Virus record (IMG/VR): IMGVR_UViG_2778261417_000010
Reading direction: 5' to 3' (one strand)
Source of the DNA: a virus
Taxonomy: Duplodnaviria; Heunggongvirae; Uroviricota; Caudoviricetes
Length of the DNA stretch: 20,995 nucleotides
The position numbers were made by a program, and so were the translations under genes. The notes under the pieces were generated by a model. That model did not search any database, was not told the origin of the DNA, and saw nothing but the letters and a program-made list of their open reading frames with translations. Positions 3,895 through 9,177 of this stretch are shown one piece after another (within the stretch, counting starts at the first letter, position 1; every line of letters starts with the position of its first letter).

Positions 3895-4166
3895 GTATTC
3901 GTATTGAAATTGGCGAACGTTATGTCGTTACCAGTGACAGCTTTCAGTTTATTCTCCACGAGAAAAAGAGAGCGGAAAGCGGTAAAAACGCCGGTCAGGA
4001 ATGGCTGTCGGTGGTTGGTTATTACCCGAAATTAAGCCAGCTCGTTTCCGGCATGATGCATCACGATATTCTGACCGGAAGCGCAAAGTCTTTTGCTGAT
4101 TTAAACGCGCAGGTTGAGCAACTCAGCAAGCGTTGTTCAGAGGCTTTTGGCTCATATGGCCGTTAA
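3891..4166 (+). CDS. hypothetical early protein (P2 orf83 position)
   Basis: 91-aa ORF, ATGA overlap with the upstream gene. Assigned by synteny. Confidence 0.65.
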   Translation: MSIRIEIGERYVVTSDSFQFILHEKKRAESGKNAGQEWLSVVGYYPKLSQLVSGMMHHDILTGSAKSFADLNAQVEQLSKRCSEAFGSYGR

Positions 4167-6426
4167 AGCCTCCGGGCGTTTTGTCCCTCCATCAGCATTT
4201 GCCGCAGGCACCGGTAAGGCGTTTACCGGTGCTTATGCATGGAACGCGCCACGCGAGGCTGTCGGGCGCGAAAGACCCCTTACACGTGACGAGATGCGTC
4301 AGGTGCAAGGTGTTTTATCCACGATTAACCGCCTGCCTTACTTTTTGCGCTCGCTGTTTACTTCACGCTATGACTACATCCGGCGCAATAAAAGCCCGGT
4401 GCACGGGTTTTATTTCCTCACATCCACTTTTCAGCGTCGTTTATGGCCGCGCATTGAGCGCGTGAATCAGCGCCATGAAATGAACACCGACGCGTCGTTG
4501 CTGTTTCTGGCAGAGCGTGACCATTATGCGCGTCTGCCGGGGATGAATGACAAGGAACTGAAAAAGTTTGCCGCCCGTATCTCATCGCAGCTTTTCATGA
4601 TGTATGAGGAACTCTGCGATGCATGGGTTGATGCACATGGCGAGAAAGAATCGCTGTTTACGGATGAGGCTCAGGCGCATCTGTATGGTCATGTTGCTGG
4701 CGCTGCACGAGCTTTCAATATTTCCCCTCTCTACTGGAAAAAATACCGTAAAGGACAGATGACCACGAGGCAGGCATATTCTGCCATTGCCCGTCTGTTT
4801 AACGATGAGTGGTGGACTCATCAGCTTAAAGGTCAGCGTATGCGCTGGCATGAGGCGTTACTGATTGCTGTCGGGGAGGTGAATAAAGACCGTTCTCCTT
4901 ATGCCAGTAAACATGCCATTCGTGATGTGCGTGCGCGCCGCCAGGCAAATCTGGAATTTCTTAAATCGTGTGACCTTGAAAACAGGGAAACCGGCGAGCG
5001 CATCGACCTTATCAGTAAGGTGATGGGAAGTATTTCTAATCCTGAAATTCGCCGGATGGAGCTGATGAACACCATTGCCGGTATTGAGCGTTACGCCGCC
5101 GCAGAGGGTGATGTGGGGATGTTTATCACGCTGACCGCGCCGTCAAAGTATCACCCGACACGTCAGGTCGGAAAAGGTGAAAGTAAAACCGTCCAGCTAA
5201 ATCACGGCTGGAACGATGAGGCATTTAATCCAAAGGATGCGCAGCGTTATCTCTGCCGCATCTGGAGCCTGATGCGCACGGCATTCAAGGATAATGATTT
5301 ACAGGTCTACGGTTTGCGTGTCGTCGAGCCACACCACGACGGAACGCCGCACTGGCATATGATGCTTTTTTGTAATCCACGTCAGCGTAACCAGATTATC
5401 GAAACCATGCGTCGCTACGCGCTCAAAGAGGATGGCGACGAAAGAGGAGCCGAGCGAAACCGTTTTCAGGCGAAACACCTTAACCGGGGCGGTGCTGCGG
5501 GGTATATCGCGAAATACATTTCAAAAAATATCGACGGCTATGCACTGGATGGTCAGCTCGATAACGATACCGGCAGACCTCTGAAAGATACTGCCGCGGC
5601 TGTTACTGCATGGGCGTCAACGTGGCGCATCCCGCAATTTAAAACGGTTGGTCTGCCGACAATGGGGGCTTACCGTGAACTACGCAAATTGCCTCGCGGC
5701 GTCAGCATTGCTGATGAGTTTGACGAACGCGTCGAGGCTGCACGCGCTGCCGCAGACAGTGGCGATTTTGCGTTGTATATCAGTGCGCAGGGTGGGGCAA
5801 ATGTTCCGCGCGATTGCCAGACTGTCAGAGTCGCCCGTAGCCCGTCGGATGAAGTTAACGAGTACGAGGAAGAAGTCGAGAGAGTGGTCGGCATTTACGC
5901 GCCGCATCTCGGCGCGCGTCATATTCATATCACCAGAACGACGGACTGGCGCATTGTTCCGAAAGTTCCGGTCGTGGAGCCTTTAACTTTAAAAAGCGGC
6001 ATCGCCGCGCCTCGGAGTCCTGTCAATAACTGTGGAAAGCTCACCAGTGGTGATACTTCGTTACCGGCTCCCACACCTTCTGAGCACGTCGCAGCAGTGC
6101 TTAATCTGGTTGATGACGGTGTTATCGAATGGAATGACCCGGAGGTCGTGAGGGCGCTCAGGGGCGCATTAAAACACGGACTGAGAACACCAAATCGTCA
6201 GCAAAGAGCCGGAAGCCCGTTAAAACCGCATGAAATAGCACCGTCGGCCAGACTGACCCGGTCGGAACGATTGCAAATTACCCGTATCCGCGTTGACCTC
6301 GCTCAGAACGGTATCAGGCCGCAACGATGGGAGCTTGAGGTGCTGGCGCGTGGCGCGACCGTAAATTATGACGGGAAAAAATTCACGTATCCGGTCACTG
6401 ATGAGTGGCCGGGGTTTGTGGATTAA
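4156..6426 (+). CDS. A: replication initiation endonuclease A (rolling-circle nicking protein)
   Basis: ORF track start 4114 is TTG. ATG 4156 (MAVKASGRF...) follows GAGG and overlaps the upstream stop by 11 nt. Contains HUH-type motif HWHMMLF (~5351-5368) and active-site tyrosine pair in GYIAKYISK (~5503-5526). Confidence 0.9.
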   Translation: MAVKASGRFVPPSAFAAGTGKAFTGAYAWNAPREAVGRERPLTRDEMRQVQGVLSTINRLPYFLRSLFTSRYDYIRRNKSPVHGFYFLTSTFQRRLWPRIERVNQRHEMNTDASLLFLAERDHYARLPGMNDKELKKFAARISSQLFMMYEELCDAWVDAHGEKESLFTDEAQAHLYGHVAGAARAFNISPLYWKKYRKGQMTTRQAYSAIARLFNDEWWTHQLKGQRMRWHEALLIAVGEVNKDRSPYASKHAIRDVRARRQANLEFLKSCDLENRETGERIDLISKVMGSISNPEIRRMELMNTIAGIERYAAAEGDVGMFITLTAPSKYHPTRQVGKGESKTVQLNHGWNDEAFNPKDAQRYLCRIWSLMRTAFKDNDLQVYGLRVVEPHHDGTPHWHMMLFCNPRQRNQIIETMRRYALKEDGDERGAERNRFQAKHLNRGGAAGYIAKYISKNIDGYALDGQLDNDTGRPLKDTAAAVTAWASTWRIPQFKTVGLPTMGAYRELRKLPRGVSIADEFDERVEAARAAADSGDFALYISAQGGANVPRDCQTVRVARSPSDEVNEYEEEVERVVGIYAPHLGARHIHITRTTDWRIVPKVPVVEPLTLKSGIAAPRSPVNNCGKLTSGDTSLPAPTPSEHVAAVLNLVDDGVIEWNDPEVVRALRGALKHGLRTPNRQQRAGSPLKPHEIAPSARLTRSERLQITRIRVDLAQNGIRPQRWELEVLARGATVNYDGKKFTYPVTDEWPGFVD

Positions 6427-6471
6427 ACTTATTGATAAATAATGTGTCAAGATAACGCCAGGTAATTATAT

Positions 6472-6909
6472 ATGGTAAGAGTTTGCATTGATAAGAAAGG
6501 GAATGTTATCACCGATATCTCTTTGGGAGTCGGGGATTTTGAAGATTGTTGTAGCGTAGCAGAGGAGAAGTATAATCAGGCACTTTGCAGTAATTTTGTG
6601 AGTGTGGTGGCAGTGGTGAATGACGATAATGAGAAAATAGGTTTTTGTTCATTCATCATTGAATCTACAGAGGACGCTGTAATATATCAAATCGATTATG
6701 TTTGGGTTAAGCAAAGTGAGCGGGGACAAGGGTTATCAAAATTAATGATTCCTTATGTGGCTCAAGAGCTTATTTCTATTTATAAAGACTTGCTTGGAAA
6801 GTATTCATTTGGTGATATATGTCTTTGTGATAATTCTGTTTATATATCGGATGGAGGGGCTGTTTTTGGTCGAGGGGTAAAGGGATTCACCTTTAATGTA
6901 ATTAAGTAA
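6472..6909 (+). CDS. small GNAT-like N-acetyltransferase (cargo gene in the A-cos hotspot)
   Basis: 145-aa ORF in a conspicuously AT-rich island. Beta strand IYQIDYVWV followed by RGQGLSKLM fits the GNAT motif-A acetyl-CoA pyrophosphate loop (R/Q-x-x-G-x-G/A/S). No obvious SD before ATG 6472. Family call from motif only. Confidence 0.55.
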   Translation: MVRVCIDKKGNVITDISLGVGDFEDCCSVAEEKYNQALCSNFVSVVAVVNDDNEKIGFCSFIIESTEDAVIYQIDYVWVKQSERGQGLSKLMIPYVAQELISIYKDLLGKYSFGDICLCDNSVYISDGGAVFGRGVKGFTFNVIK

Positions 6910-6950
6910 TTCCGGGTGAAATGAAAAAGATATCTCAATGTTTGAGATGG

Positions 6951-7004
6951 AACAAATTTAAGAAACTCCGCCGGTGCTGAAACTTGCTTTCAGTGCTGGC
7001 GGAG
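6951..7004 (-). terminator. candidate intrinsic terminator for the 143-aa cargo gene; hairpin also foldable on the plus transcript
   Basis: Hairpin 6966-7004 (CTCCGCCGGTGCTGAAA / loop CTTGC / TTTCAGTGCTGGCGGAG) starts 14 nt past the minus-gene stop. On the minus strand it is followed by a U-rich run (complement of 6951-6965). On plus RNA the stem is 17 bp with three G-U pairs but no U-tract. Confidence 0.4.
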
Positions 7005-7017
7005 GTGAAGTAAGGCG

Positions 7018-7449
7018 TTAGCTAGTTATCAGATTGACACCGAGGGTAAGCAGGTTTGTTACTGCACCGGCAATAACACCAGGTGTCCCGTCCTTCACTG
7101 CGCTGATAATCTTATCTCCCATCGTTTCATTACCGCCAAGTGCTTCGGGTTTTTTGTTGAGCACCGCGAGTGCTTTCTCGGTCAGTCGCACATCATGAAA
7201 ACCGGTCTGATGGTCTGTTCCGTACAGAATATAGCCGTTTTCGCTTAAGAAAGTGAATGTGCCATCAACCACACTACGCAACTGATTCAGTGCTTTCATT
7301 TCTGGTGAGTTAAGTTGGTCAAAGTAGTCATCAGGTAACGCGGCGTTAAATTTTTTGTAGGTGATGACTTGTGGTACAGGAAAGTTATCCCATAGCACCG
7401 CAAAGATTTCTGCCGTCTGTTGGTTGAATAATTCGAGATTTTTGGACAT
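7018..7449 (-). CDS. hypothetical protein, 143 aa, hydrophobic glycine-rich C-terminus (cargo gene in the A-cos hotspot)
   Basis: ATG (plus CAT 7447-7449) with AAGGGA about 9 nt upstream on the minus strand. AT-rich. C-terminal GTPGVIAGAVTNLLTLGVNLI is glycine-zipper-like. No family recognised. Confidence 0.65.
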   Translation of the reverse strand: MSKNLELFNQQTAEIFAVLWDNFPVPQVITYKKFNAALPDDYFDQLNSPEMKALNQLRSVVDGTFTFLSENGYILYGTDHQTGFHDVRLTEKALAVLNKKPEALGGNETMGDKIISAVKDGTPGVIAGAVTNLLTLGVNLITS

Positions 7450-7510
7450 GCATAGTTCCCTTTCATCAATTAAAGACCCTTATGCCGACTGGGCAAAGAG
7501 GCTAACTGTA

Positions 7511-7642
7511 ATGGCCTCAAATAACGACCTGAGCTCACGCGAGGTGGACAGTTACACTGAAAAAATGGTTGAACAAGCCAGTAAAGATGAGCTTATGGTC
7601 GTTATAAAATACCTGTTAAATCACATCAGAATGAGTAAATAA
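7511..7642 (+). CDS. possible small ORF (43 aa) divergent from the 143-aa gene
   Basis: ATG 7511 with AAGAGG (7496-7501) 9 nt upstream; MASNNDLSSREVDSYTEKMVEQASKDELMVVIKYLLNHIRMSK. Could instead be the untranslated promoter region of the minus-strand gene. Confidence 0.3.
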   Translation: MASNNDLSSREVDSYTEKMVEQASKDELMVVIKYLLNHIRMSK

Positions 7643-7782
7643 AATGATCTATATCAAGATGTTATCTCACATTTATGAAAGTCCGTGGACAACGATTTTT
7701 CTGCTAATTGTTGTCAGTACGTGCCTCAACAGTGTGATTGGTGCATTGCGCGGCCAGTGACAACTATAAAAATTGATCAGAA

Positions 7783-7808
7783 CCGGCACCATGAATGCCG
7801 GTTTTTTT
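7783..7808 (+). terminator. rho-independent terminator upstream of cos
   Basis: CCGGCA (7783-7788) / loop CCATGAA / TGCCGG (7796-7801) followed by TTTTTTT (7802-7808). Confidence 0.6.
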
Positions 7809-7953
7809 GTGCTTTTTCTGTGATATCCCCGTTTTTATCTGTGCATGGTTTTGCATGTGCCGGAGTTACATGTTCTGGCTGTGCGTCCGCCAGGACTGGC
7901 GTGGCTCAAAAGCGGTATTGCAACTGCATTAAAACCGCCCCATGAAGCGGGCG

Positions 7954-7972
7954 GGCGAGGCGGGGAAAGCAC
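7954..7972. other. cos: cos site (19-nt cohesive end sequence of P2-type phages)
   Basis: GGCGAGGCGGGGAAAGCAC matches the P2 cohesive-end sequence as I recall it. Located just upstream of the Q gene end, as expected for cos in a P2 prophage. Confidence 0.7.
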
Positions 7973-8115
7973 TGCGCGCTGGCGGTGGTGCTGATTTTAT
8001 TTTTTCAGCGTCTGAGCGCGTCGTGACGGCGTTTAGTCTGCCCGTTGGGGGCGTTGGTGTGTCTGCGGGCTGTTTTGTGCTGTGGTGAGCGTGTGAGGGC
8101 GTGATGACGGGATGT

Positions 8116-8137
8116 AAAAAAGCCGCCCGCAGGCGGC
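8116..8137 (-). terminator. rho-independent terminator downstream of Q
   Basis: On the minus strand GCCGCC / loop TGCG / GGCGGC followed by TTTTTT (plus-strand A-run 8116-8121), beginning 6 nt after the Q stop. Confidence 0.55.
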
Positions 8138-8142
8138 GATGT

Positions 8143-9177
8143 TCAGCCGTTGTCAGTGTCCAGTGAGTAGTTTTTAAAGCGGATGACCTCCTGACCGAGC
8201 CAGCCGTTTATCTCGCGGATCCTGTCCTGTAACGGGATAAGCTCATTGCGGACAAAGACCTTTGCCACTTTCTCAATATCTCCCAGTGACCCGACGTTCT
8301 CCGGCTTGCCGCCCATCAACTGAAAGGGGATACGGTGCGCGTCCAGCAGGTCAGCGGCGCTGGCTTTTTTGATATTAAAAAAATCGTCCTTCGTTGCCAC
8401 TTCACTGAGCGGGATAATTTTAATGCCGTCGGCTTTCCCCTGTGGGGCATAGAGAAACAGATTTTTAAAGTTATTGCGGCCTTTCGACTTAACCATGTTT
8501 TCGCGAAGCATTTCGATATCGTTGCGGTCCTGCACGGCATCGGTGACGTACATGATGTATCCGGCATGTGCGCCGTTTTCGTAATACTTGCGGCGGAACA
8601 GCGTGGCCGACTCATTCAGCCAGGCAGAGTTAAGGGCGCTGAGATATTCCGGCAGGCCGTACAGCTCCTGATTAATATCAGGCTCCAGCAGGTGAAACAC
8701 GGAGCCGGGCGCGAAGGCTGTCGGCTCGTTGAAGGACGGCACCCACCAGTAAACATCCTCCTCCACGCCACGACGGGTATATTTGGCCGGTGAGGTTTCC
8801 AGTCTGATGACCTTACCGGTGGTGCTGTAACGCTTTTCCAGAAACGCATTACCAAACACCAGAAAATCCAGCACAAAGCGGCTGAAATCCTGCTGGGACA
8901 GCCACGGATGCGGGATAAATGTCGAGGCCAGAATATTACGTTTGACGTAAATCGGTGAGCTGTGATGCACGGCAGCACGCAGGCTTTTTGCCAGACCGGT
9001 AAAGCTGACCGGTGGCTCATACCATCTGCCGTTACTGATGCACTCGACGTAATCCAGAATGTCACGGCGGTCGAGTACCGGCACCGGCTCACCAAAGGTG
9101 AATGCCTCCATTTTCGGGGCGCTGGCGGTCATTTTTTTTGCCGCAGGTTGCGGTGTTTTCCCTTTTTTCTTGCTCAT
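8143..9177 (-). CDS. Q: capsid portal protein
   Basis: 344-aa ORF, same length as P2 gpQ as recalled. ATGA overlap with the P stop. Located between cos and P. Confidence 0.95.
   Translation of the reverse strand: MSKKKGKTPQPAAKKMTASAPKMEAFTFGEPVPVLDRRDILDYVECISNGRWYEPPVSFTGLAKSLRAAVHHSSPIYVKRNILASTFIPHPWLSQQDFSRFVLDFLVFGNAFLEKRYSTTGKVIRLETSPAKYTRRGVEEDVYWWVPSFNEPTAFAPGSVFHLLEPDINQELYGLPEYLSALNSAWLNESATLFRRKYYENGAHAGYIMYVTDAVQDRNDIEMLRENMVKSKGRNNFKNLFLYAPQGKADGIKIIPLSEVATKDDFFNIKKASAADLLDAHRIPFQLMGGKPENVGSLGDIEKVAKVFVRNELIPLQDRIREINGWLGQEVIRFKNYSLDTDNG

What the first reader, a model, noticed from the sequence alone, without database searches (positions are those of the whole stretch)
6427..7950. 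AT-rich cargo island at the P2 tin/old hotspot with an unassigned two-to-three-gene module
Between replication gene A and cos, P2 carries the exclusion genes tin and old, and P2-like prophages are known to swap diverse anti-phage systems in at this locus. Here the slot holds different content: a 145-aa GNAT-like acetyltransferase (plus strand), a convergent 143-aa protein with a hydrophobic glycine-rich C-terminus (minus strand), and a possible 43-aa ORF, all visibly AT-rich against the GC-rich phage backbone. I do not recognise the pair as any named defence or toxin-antitoxin system. Location plus composition make it the best candidate in the window for an undescribed defence or abortive-infection module.
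Basis: partly seen in the sequence, partly recalled or inferred. Interest (0 to 1): 0.8.

Follow-up and report, generated by a model that had tools for sequence, protein, structure and literature searches.

The report
Two unrelated cargo units, P2 hotspot
The AT-rich island between the replication gene and the packaging site of this P2-like prophage is real. It is not one module but two independent accessory units of untested function: a lone, very unusual acetyltransferase-fold gene, and a separately conserved pair of small genes.

Summary
ORFs of 145 aa (6472-6909 +), 143 aa (7018-7449 -) and 64 aa (7448-7642 +, or 43 aa from 7511) lie between gene A and cos (7956-7974). Their GC is 37-45%, against 53% for the backbone.

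The interpretation as one module fails. In 5,426 complete E. coli genomes the GNAT gene occurs in 11. The 143/64-aa pair occurs in 79, next to other cargo: retron type VI, DinI/Tum-like genes, or PDC-M48.

The 143-aa protein is a winged-helix protein. It and the 64-aa ORF are under purifying selection, with conserved overlapping start codons.

Neither unit is a housekeeping gene or a named defence system. A defence or counter-defence role for the GNAT is plausible but untested. Both accessions appear as unannotated "hypothetical" entries in a published catalogue of this hotspot. This is a reasonable experimental lead, not a demonstrated new system.

The parts
4114..6426 (+). Replication gene A (left, conserved flank of the hotspot)
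   Evidence: 770-aa ORF. Near-identical RefSeq loci annotate it as replication endonuclease.
6427..6957 (+). AT-rich single-gene GNAT cassette (cargo position 1)
   Evidence: GC 0.37. The left edge is the stop codon of A. The right edge is where homology to DinI-bearing P2/186-like loci starts (query 519-570 = window 6958-7009). Found in 11 of 5,426 E. coli genomes, all at 99.8% identity or more.
6472..6909 (+). 145-aa minimal, divergent GNAT-fold protein (RefSeq WP_000252694.1)
6966..7004 (.). Hairpin between the convergent GNAT and 143-aa genes, likely a bidirectional terminator
   Evidence: 17-nt inverted repeat with a 5-nt loop. It belongs to the conserved pair module: 88-92% identity to DinI-bearing loci.
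7018..7449 (-). 143-aa winged-helix protein with a hydrophobic Gly/Ala-rich C-terminal helix (phrog_2266; WP_000042039.1)
7448..7642 (+). 64-aa ORF (phrog_2454; WP_024173623.1), divergent from the 143-aa gene, with start codons overlapping in CATG.
   Evidence: PHROG E 4e-38. Full length is kept at 54% identity. There is an in-frame 1-codon indel, and substitutions are biased to the third codon position. An AAGAGG Shine-Dalgarno sequence precedes the 7511 ATG (sequence).
7779..7805 (+). Intrinsic-terminator-like hairpin plus T-run after the 64-aa gene
7650..7950 (.). Conserved non-coding stretch between the pair and cos
   Evidence: Conserved at the DNA level in related loci, but other records annotate it in different frames. 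It is broken by stops and frameshifts here. There is no Rfam match above the gathering score.
7956..7974 (+). cos cohesive-end sequence GGCGAGGCGGGGAAAGCAC
   Evidence: Sequence. The exact 19-mer occurs in 11 related loci. It is given as the cohesive end of P2-related phages in PMC3931495.
8143..9177 (-). Portal gene Q (right, conserved flank)
   Evidence: Annotated as portal in near-identical loci.

Best explanation
The interval holds two independent accessory units inside the already described P2 A-Q hotspot.

Unit 1 (6427-6957) is a single-gene, AT-rich cassette. It encodes a minimal, very divergent GNAT-fold acyltransferase that acts without a dedicated partner. Its small family recurs in the A-Q slot of at least five diverged P2-like phages, usually on the same strand just downstream of A. 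Family members elsewhere sit among defence or anti-defence genes, or at a variable chromosomal spot in Vibrio.

Inferred mechanism for unit 1: an acyl-CoA-dependent modification of a macromolecule involved in phage-host conflict. The most likely version is acetylation of an aminoacyl-tRNA or a protein, which protects the lysogen from other phages. A counter-defence role during P2's own lytic cycle is the main alternative.

Unit 2 (about 6958-7810) is a conserved divergent gene pair at the extreme right end of the packaged genome: a soluble winged-helix protein and a 64-aa protein with overlapping start codons. It is carried by many P2/186-like phages of Enterobacteriaceae whatever the neighbouring cargo.

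Inferred mechanism for unit 2: the winged-helix protein binds the shared, overlapping promoter region and controls itself and the small gene.

Shown: the anatomy, the independence of the two units, the folds and the purifying selection. Inferred: enzymatic activity, targets, timing of expression and any phenotype.
For: Independence of the two units:
- The GNAT is in 11 of 5,426 E. coli genomes and the pair is in 79.
- The pair is flanked on the A side by retron type VI (RT_VI E 4e-105, HTH_VI), DinI, Tum-like DinI plus retron, or PDC-M48.
- The homology breakpoint lies at 6958-7033, at the 3' end of the 143-aa gene.

GNAT as a solo, recurrent hotspot gene:
- Relatives lie in the P2-like A-Q slot in L013 (next to Old, E 5e-207), L021 (the only gene in the slot, opposite orientation), L032 and L033 (beside Dazbog DzbA).
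- GNAT identity among these is 26-47% while A identity is 38-80%, and the two are loosely congruent.
- Other contexts: next to an AcrVA2-like gene and a PRTase retron; between DUF932/RadC and MAD7; chromosomal in Vibrio.
- No partner gene is shared across these contexts.

Fold:
- An R84-G-Q-G87-L-S89 pyrophosphate-loop motif is present, with R84 invariant in the family.

Pair:
- Both ORFs show third-position-biased substitutions and keep their length. The CATG start overlap is conserved.
- The 143-aa protein has a winged-helix fold, pLDDT 91.

Prior for this locus: 3 of 8 newly cloned P2-locus systems, plus the cloned old-tin genes, protected against phages (PMC9122126).
Against: - There is no functional evidence of any kind.
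- There is no informative hit in PADLOC: best E 0.025 for the window's GNAT, 0.0033 for one family member, and nothing for the other ORFs.
- The model ends after helix alpha-4, so the usual C-terminal strands beta-6/7 are absent. The canonical catalytic Tyr of motif B is not evident. The family-invariant motif is instead G-x-C59-S60. Catalytic competence is therefore uncertain.
- In the window the GNAT starts 45 bp after A with no terminator between them and no convincing promoter of its own. It may therefore be expressed only with the early lytic operon. That would fit counter-defence better than protection of the lysogen.
- The Vibrio copies are not obviously on mobile elements.
Confidence: 0.6

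Rival explanations
1. One reading: the GNAT, the 143-aa protein and possibly the small ORF form one undescribed defence or abortive-infection (or toxin-antitoxin) module.
For: The genes are adjacent in a defence hotspot and share low GC. All 11 E. coli genomes with the GNAT also have the pair. The nearest structural neighbours of the GNAT include the TacT and AtaT toxins.
Against: - 68 of the 79 E. coli genomes with the pair lack the GNAT.
- None of the GNAT relatives examined in other contexts has the pair next to it.
- The genes are convergent, with a terminator hairpin between them.
- The recombination breakpoint falls between them.
- The 11 co-occurrences are one nearly clonal prophage lineage, at 99.8% identity or more.
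Confidence: 0.05
2. The GNAT is a counter-defence or host-takeover enzyme of the phage. It would be transcribed as the last gene of the early (Pe) operon during lytic growth, and would inactivate a host or rival defence protein by acetylation, as the anti-CRISPR AcrVA5 does (precedent from my own knowledge).
For: - It lies on the same strand within 31-105 bp of the preceding early-operon ORF in three of five P2-like contexts. No terminator-like site precedes it, and one follows it in the window.
- Relatives lie next to an AcrVA2-like gene and next to a DUF932/RadC anti-restriction cluster.
- It diverges fast but loosely tracks the A phylogeny.
Against: - Recognised anti-defence genes are rare in P2-like phages: 28 of 1,511 (PMC13586616).
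- In two P2-like contexts the gene is opposite to A or separated from it, so it needs its own promoter there.
- Conserved chromosomal copies in several Vibrio species suggest a benefit to the cell rather than to a phage.
Confidence: 0.2
3. The GNAT is an ordinary lysogenic-conversion or detoxification gene, for example acetylation of an antibiotic, microcin or polyamine. Alternatively it is a non-catalytic GNAT-like remnant. Either way it is unrelated to phage conflict.
For: - The best NCBIfam hit is EctA, though only weakly.
- The Vibrio copies sit among stress genes (MscS, OsmC).
- The missing C-terminal strands and missing canonical Tyr allow a pseudoenzyme.
- About a quarter of P2 hotspot loci carry non-defence cargo such as partition systems (PMC9122126).
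Against: - Recurrence in the same phage slot in five diverged P2-like phages, and among defence or anti-defence genes elsewhere.
- Invariant residues (C59, S60, R84, S122, G129) persist across 25-40% identity, which argues for a selected activity.
Confidence: 0.2
4. The 143-aa protein is a tail-anchored membrane protein that excludes superinfecting phage or acts as a membrane-active effector. The 64-aa protein is its regulator or antidote.
For: The C-terminal 19-20 residues are hydrophobic and rich in Gly and Ala, and are conserved. The mean Kyte-Doolittle value of about 1.56 is borderline for a transmembrane helix (my own hand calculation). Prophage exclusion proteins are often small membrane proteins (my own knowledge).
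Against: - AF2 packs the last two helices onto the winged-helix domain with high confidence: pLDDT 88-95 for residues 111-140, pTM 0.86.
- N132 is invariant and T131 is nearly invariant inside the helix.
- The distant homologue in the Mu-like phage PhiKM ends in an amphipathic, charged helix.
- Some copies exist without an intact 64-aa gene (L024, L026).
Confidence: 0.15

Closest known systems
Cargo of the P2 A-Q (tin/old) hotspot as catalogued by Rousset et al. 2022 (PMC9122126) and Moura de Sousa et al. 2026 (PMC13586616)
   Same: Same locus between gpA and gpQ next to cos. The island is AT-rich and swapped between otherwise similar prophages. These exact accessions (WP_000252694, WP_000042039/38) are listed in Table S5A of PMC9122126 as 'hypothetical'.
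   Different: Neither the GNAT cassette nor the pair was found, by its start-of-gene sequences, in that paper's held supplementary files, which include the table of systems evaluated. Neither has an informative PADLOC match. P2's own tin and old are absent from the window.
GNAT toxins of type II toxin-antitoxin systems (TacT, AtaT, KacT, ItaT), which acetylate aminoacyl-tRNA
AcrVA5, a GNAT-fold anti-CRISPR that acetylates Cas12a (from my own knowledge, not tested here)
   Same: A small solo GNAT on a mobile element that acts alone in phage-host conflict. One relative lies next to an AcrVA2-like gene.
   Different: No sequence or structural comparison was made. E. coli has no Cas12a, so any target would be different.
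Winged-helix DNA-binding regulators (MarR, CtsR, CodY-C) and winged-helix domains of kleisin/KITE proteins (Scc1-C, ScpA-C, ScpB, JetB)
   Different: There is no sequence-level family membership: Pfam, NCBIfam and PADLOC gave nothing, and PDB sequence search gave E>=0.45. It has an extra C-terminal helical hairpin with a hydrophobic last helix. BFVD has no structural match. The HHpred similarity to T7 gp5.5/5.7 noted by the annotators of phage Midge was not reproduced.

Membership tests
GNAT (GCN5-related N-acetyltransferase) superfamily | Sequence match to a GNAT profile at or above the curated threshold | tested here: met
   Acetyltransf_1 scores 22.0 bits against a gathering score of 20.7, which is marginal. 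Acetyltransf_7 scores 26 against 27, just below. Six of 10 family members hit Acetyltransf_1 weakly.
GNAT (GCN5-related N-acetyltransferase) superfamily | GNAT alpha/beta fold | tested here: met
   [not shown]
GNAT (GCN5-related N-acetyltransferase) superfamily | Motif A pyrophosphate-binding loop R/Q-x-x-G-x-G/A after beta-4 | tested here: inconclusive
   R84-G-Q-G87-L-S89 is present in the window's protein. R84 is invariant and S89 nearly invariant, but G87 is K or S in most relatives.
GNAT (GCN5-related N-acetyltransferase) superfamily | Acyl-CoA-dependent transferase activity | not testable with these tools
   Needs biochemistry.
GNAT/RHH type II toxin-antitoxin toxins (TacT/AtaT family) | Adjacent co-transcribed RHH (DUF1778) antitoxin gene | tested here: not met
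   The neighbours are gene A (45 bp upstream) and a convergent winged-helix gene. No small ORF with a family match is present. No such partner is next to any relative.
GNAT/RHH type II toxin-antitoxin toxins (TacT/AtaT family) | Close structural similarity, including the catalytic Tyr on the C-terminal helix | tested here: inconclusive
   [not shown]
Named or candidate anti-phage defence systems (PADLOC-DB v2) | Significant match of any protein to a defence-system model | tested here: not met
   The best hit for the window's GNAT is E 0.025 (PDC-M23A). There is nothing for the 143-aa, 64-aa or other ORFs. Across the family the best is E 0.0033, for a single member. DefenseFinder was not available.
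P2 hotspot cargo (accessory gene in the gpA-gpQ slot) | Located between gpA and gpQ next to cos, and variable among otherwise related prophages | tested here: met
   Coordinates. cos. Alternative cargo at the same position in related loci.
Winged-helix DNA-binding proteins (for the 143-aa protein) | Winged-helix fold | tested here: met
   [not shown]
Winged-helix DNA-binding proteins (for the 143-aa protein) | Sequence-specific DNA binding | not testable with these tools
   Needs EMSA or ChIP. No repeated operator-like motif stood out in 7400-7700.

The most novel reading that the evidence does not exclude
A tiny family of minimal, partner-less GNAT-fold enzymes may be a new kind of single-gene conflict effector, either anti-phage or anti-defence. 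It would have co-diversified with P2-like phages at the A-proximal edge of the hotspot. It has an unusual invariant Cys-Ser motif and lacks the canonical C-terminal half of the GNAT active site. Separately, the cos-adjacent winged-helix/64-aa pair may be an undescribed regulatory switch or exclusion function shared by P2/186-like phages of Enterobacteriaceae.
Probability: 0.3. Interest if true: 0.7.

Novelty: new member of a known kind. Interest (0 to 1): 0.42.

Why it matters
The P2 A-Q hotspot is a proven source of new anti-phage systems, and a fair share of untested loci there turn out to protect. This analysis turns a vague 'island' into two cleanly delimited, separately clonable units with defined boundaries.

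It also shows that the GNAT gene is more than a one-off. It belongs to a very small family that keeps returning to the same phage slot at 26-47% identity. That makes it a specific and inexpensive candidate for a phage-plating and counter-defence test.

If active, a partner-less GNAT effector would add acetylation to the short list of single-gene defence or anti-defence chemistries. If inactive, the locus is simply an example of uncharacterised prophage cargo.

Tried and rejected
- One GNAT + 143-aa module or TA pair: rejected on distribution and breakpoints.
- A known defence system: PADLOC gave nothing informative for the window's ORFs or across the GNAT family.
- The 'third hypothetical' gene (about 89 aa, minus strand) that some records annotate between the pair and cos: rejected. 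Its frames differ between records, and the window has stops and frameshifts there.
- A structured RNA in 6300-8200: only a sub-threshold Rfam hit, 20.7 bits against 45.
- SOS control: there is no LexA-box-like site in the island. The 7 window-wide matches equal the chance expectation.
- The search for related loci with the 10-sequence alignment failed because no stretch was conserved enough.
- The species-representative genome scan with the 4-sequence alignment found no relative.
- Foldseek against AFDB50 was unavailable.
- Promoter scans around the GNAT and the pair gave nothing above chance, so timing of expression remains open.
- A recurrent link between the GNAT and OLD/AAA_15-type ATPases (seen in L013, L030 and the sister prophages L010/L027) was considered. 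It was judged unproven, because such ATPases are very common in these hotspots.

Full report
**1. Observation**

The window is a P2-like prophage. Gene A (replication endonuclease) ends at 6426. A 145-aa ORF runs 6472-6909 (+). A convergent 143-aa ORF runs 7018-7449 (-).

The portal gene Q is 8143-9177 (-). The 19-nt cohesive-end sequence GGCGAGGCGGGGAAAGCAC lies at 7956-7974. It is given as the cohesive end of P2-related phages in PMC3931495.

GC is 0.37 for the GNAT gene, 0.45 for the 143-aa gene and 0.40 for the 64-aa gene. It is 0.53 for A, for Q and for the whole window. The description is therefore correct.

**2. What the proteins are**

*The 145-aa protein.* It scores just above Pfam's threshold for Acetyltransf_1 (22.0 against 20.7 bits) and just below for Acetyltransf_7. 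RefSeq names it a GNAT family N-acetyltransferase. It is strikingly isolated:
- A word-indexed search of 5.8 billion proteins found only its own cluster.
- An exhaustive HMMER pass over 1.84 billion representatives found 10 proteins at E<=1e-3.

The model ends after helix alpha-4, so the usual C-terminal strands are missing. The family keeps R84 of the pyrophosphate loop and an unusual invariant Cys59-Ser60. It does not keep the canonical motif B tyrosine.

*No match to known systems.* None of the ORFs has an informative match to a PADLOC model. The best is E 0.025 for the GNAT.

*Both small ORFs are real genes.* Against the most distant E. coli copy, the 143-aa gene shows 44 synonymous and 20 non-synonymous codon changes. 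The 64-aa ORF keeps its exact length at 54% identity, has an in-frame one-codon indel, and shows third-position-biased changes. The overlap of the two start codons (CATG) is conserved in every locus that has both genes.

**3. Are they one module? No**

In 5,426 complete E. coli genomes the GNAT cassette is found in 11, all at 99.8% identity or more. The pair is found in 79.

Sampling every identity class of the pair shows different genes in the place of the GNAT:

| Cargo on the A side of the pair | Loci |
|---|---|
| Retron type VI (RT_VI E 4e-105 plus HTH_VI) | L002, L003, L005, L009 and Klebsiella phage ST147-VIM1phi7.1 |
| DinI | L006, L028, L029 and phage Midge |
| Tum-like DinI plus retron | L007 |
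| PDC-M48 | L008 |

Homology to these loci begins at window 6958-7033. That is the terminator hairpin and 3' end of the 143-aa gene. The GNAT cassette is therefore 6427-6957, and the pair is a separate unit.

The pair, or the 143-aa gene alone, also occurs elsewhere:
- in Kluyvera-like and Citrobacter P2/186-like elements;
- in a Klebsiella aerogenes island next to a PDC-S06 ATPase, where the 64-aa ORF carries a stop codon;
- distantly, in the Mu-like phage PhiKM.

**4. Where the GNAT family lives**

Four relatives lie in the A-Q slot of other, diverged P2-like elements:
- L013: 35% identity, beside an Old homologue and next to cos.
- L021, a Klebsiella element: 32% identity, the only gene in the slot, in the opposite orientation.
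- L032 and L033: 39-40% identity, on the same strand just downstream of A. L033 also carries Dazbog DzbA.

GNAT identity among the five is 26-47%, while A identity is 38-80%. The ranking is loosely congruent.

Other relatives sit in these contexts:
- next to an AcrVA2-like gene and a PRTase retron;
- between a DUF932/RadC anti-restriction cluster and a MAD7-containing system;
- at a variable chromosomal spot in several Vibrio genomes, once near an OLD-like nuclease.

No partner gene is shared between these contexts, so the gene works alone.

**5. Mechanism**

*What is shown.* The locus holds a solo, fast-evolving, GNAT-fold gene that recurs at the same phage hotspot, and an independent conserved winged-helix/small-protein pair next to cos.

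*What is inferred for the GNAT.* It is probably an acyl-CoA-dependent transferase acting on a conflict-related macromolecule. I rate the options as follows:
- Protection of the lysogen: about 0.35. This rests on the locus prior (PMC9122126) and on the chromosomal copies in Vibrio.
- Counter-defence from the early operon: about 0.2. The gene is on the same strand 45 bp after A, with no terminator before it and one after it, and relatives have anti-defence neighbours.
- A detoxification role, another unrelated role, or a non-catalytic remnant: the rest.

*What is inferred for the pair.* The overlapping divergent starts force the two promoters to overlap. A winged-helix autoregulator controlling the small gene is the simplest reading. 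A tail-anchored membrane role for the hydrophobic C-terminus is not excluded. It is disfavoured by the confident packing in the model, by the invariant Asn within the helix, and by the charged tail of the PhiKM homologue.

**6. Comparison with what is known, and novelty**

The hotspot itself is well described (PMC9122126, PMC13586616). The exact accessions are listed there as 'hypothetical' in Table S5A. Their start-of-gene sequences were not found in that paper's held supplementary files, which include the table of systems evaluated. No paper in the library mentions the accessions or the PHROG families.

The GNAT is not a TacT/AtaT-type toxin, because the defining adjacent antitoxin is absent. 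It meets GNAT superfamily criteria only marginally by sequence, but clearly by fold.

The finding is thus a pair of new, uncharacterised members of a known kind of locus. It is not a demonstrated new system.

**7. Verdict**

- Observation: confirmed.
- 'Cargo in the hotspot, not a known system': correct.
- 'One two-to-three-gene module': refuted.
- Function: open.

Interest is moderate. The GNAT family's repeated return to the same slot makes it a specific and inexpensive experimental candidate.

Noticed in passing
window 7975-8142 (between cos and Q); L027 5280-7027; L010 7531-9278; L028 4581-6160; L006 5326-7115: There is a second cargo position on the Q side of cos. Eight of the 11 E. coli genomes with the GNAT diverge from the window right after cos, at about 7978. 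One of them was checked (L027), as was the viral contig L010. Both carry an AAA_15/21-type ATPase (433 aa, PDC-M29A/AriA-like) plus a 145-aa gene between cos and the portal gene. Other pair-bearing prophages carry a P-loop NTPase plus a hypothetical gene, or four hypothetical genes, between the pair and Q. The window has nothing there.
   Followed up: partly
window 7650-7950: This stretch is conserved at the DNA level among pair-bearing phages. RefSeq and GenBank records annotate it as an 89-90-aa 'hypothetical protein' in different reading frames (for example L003 4641-4910 and Midge CPTMidge_047). The window has stops and frameshifts in both frames. It is probably non-coding cos-proximal DNA that has been mis-annotated.
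   Followed up: partly
L021 4860-5000 (Klebsiella CP052639.1, upstream of its GNAT-like gene): Repeated and inverted TGTGCA-containing motifs (TTGTGCAAATTTGTGCGCTTTTTTGCACA) lie just upstream of the GNAT relative, between cos and the gene. This could be an operator.
   Followed up: no
[not shown]
   Followed up: no
L033 6950-11757: The P2-like prophage that carries the closest GNAT relative also holds a Dazbog DzbA homologue (E 1e-50) with a 364-aa partner, and a DUF4365+TPR protein, in the same A-Q slot. This is an example of stacked cargo.
   Followed up: partly
L033 5956-6408: The database protein P0073 (135 aa) appears to be N-terminally truncated by the gene call. An upstream in-frame ATG adds MLRICINKQGSVIPS, which matches the family's conserved N-terminus.
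   Followed up: partly
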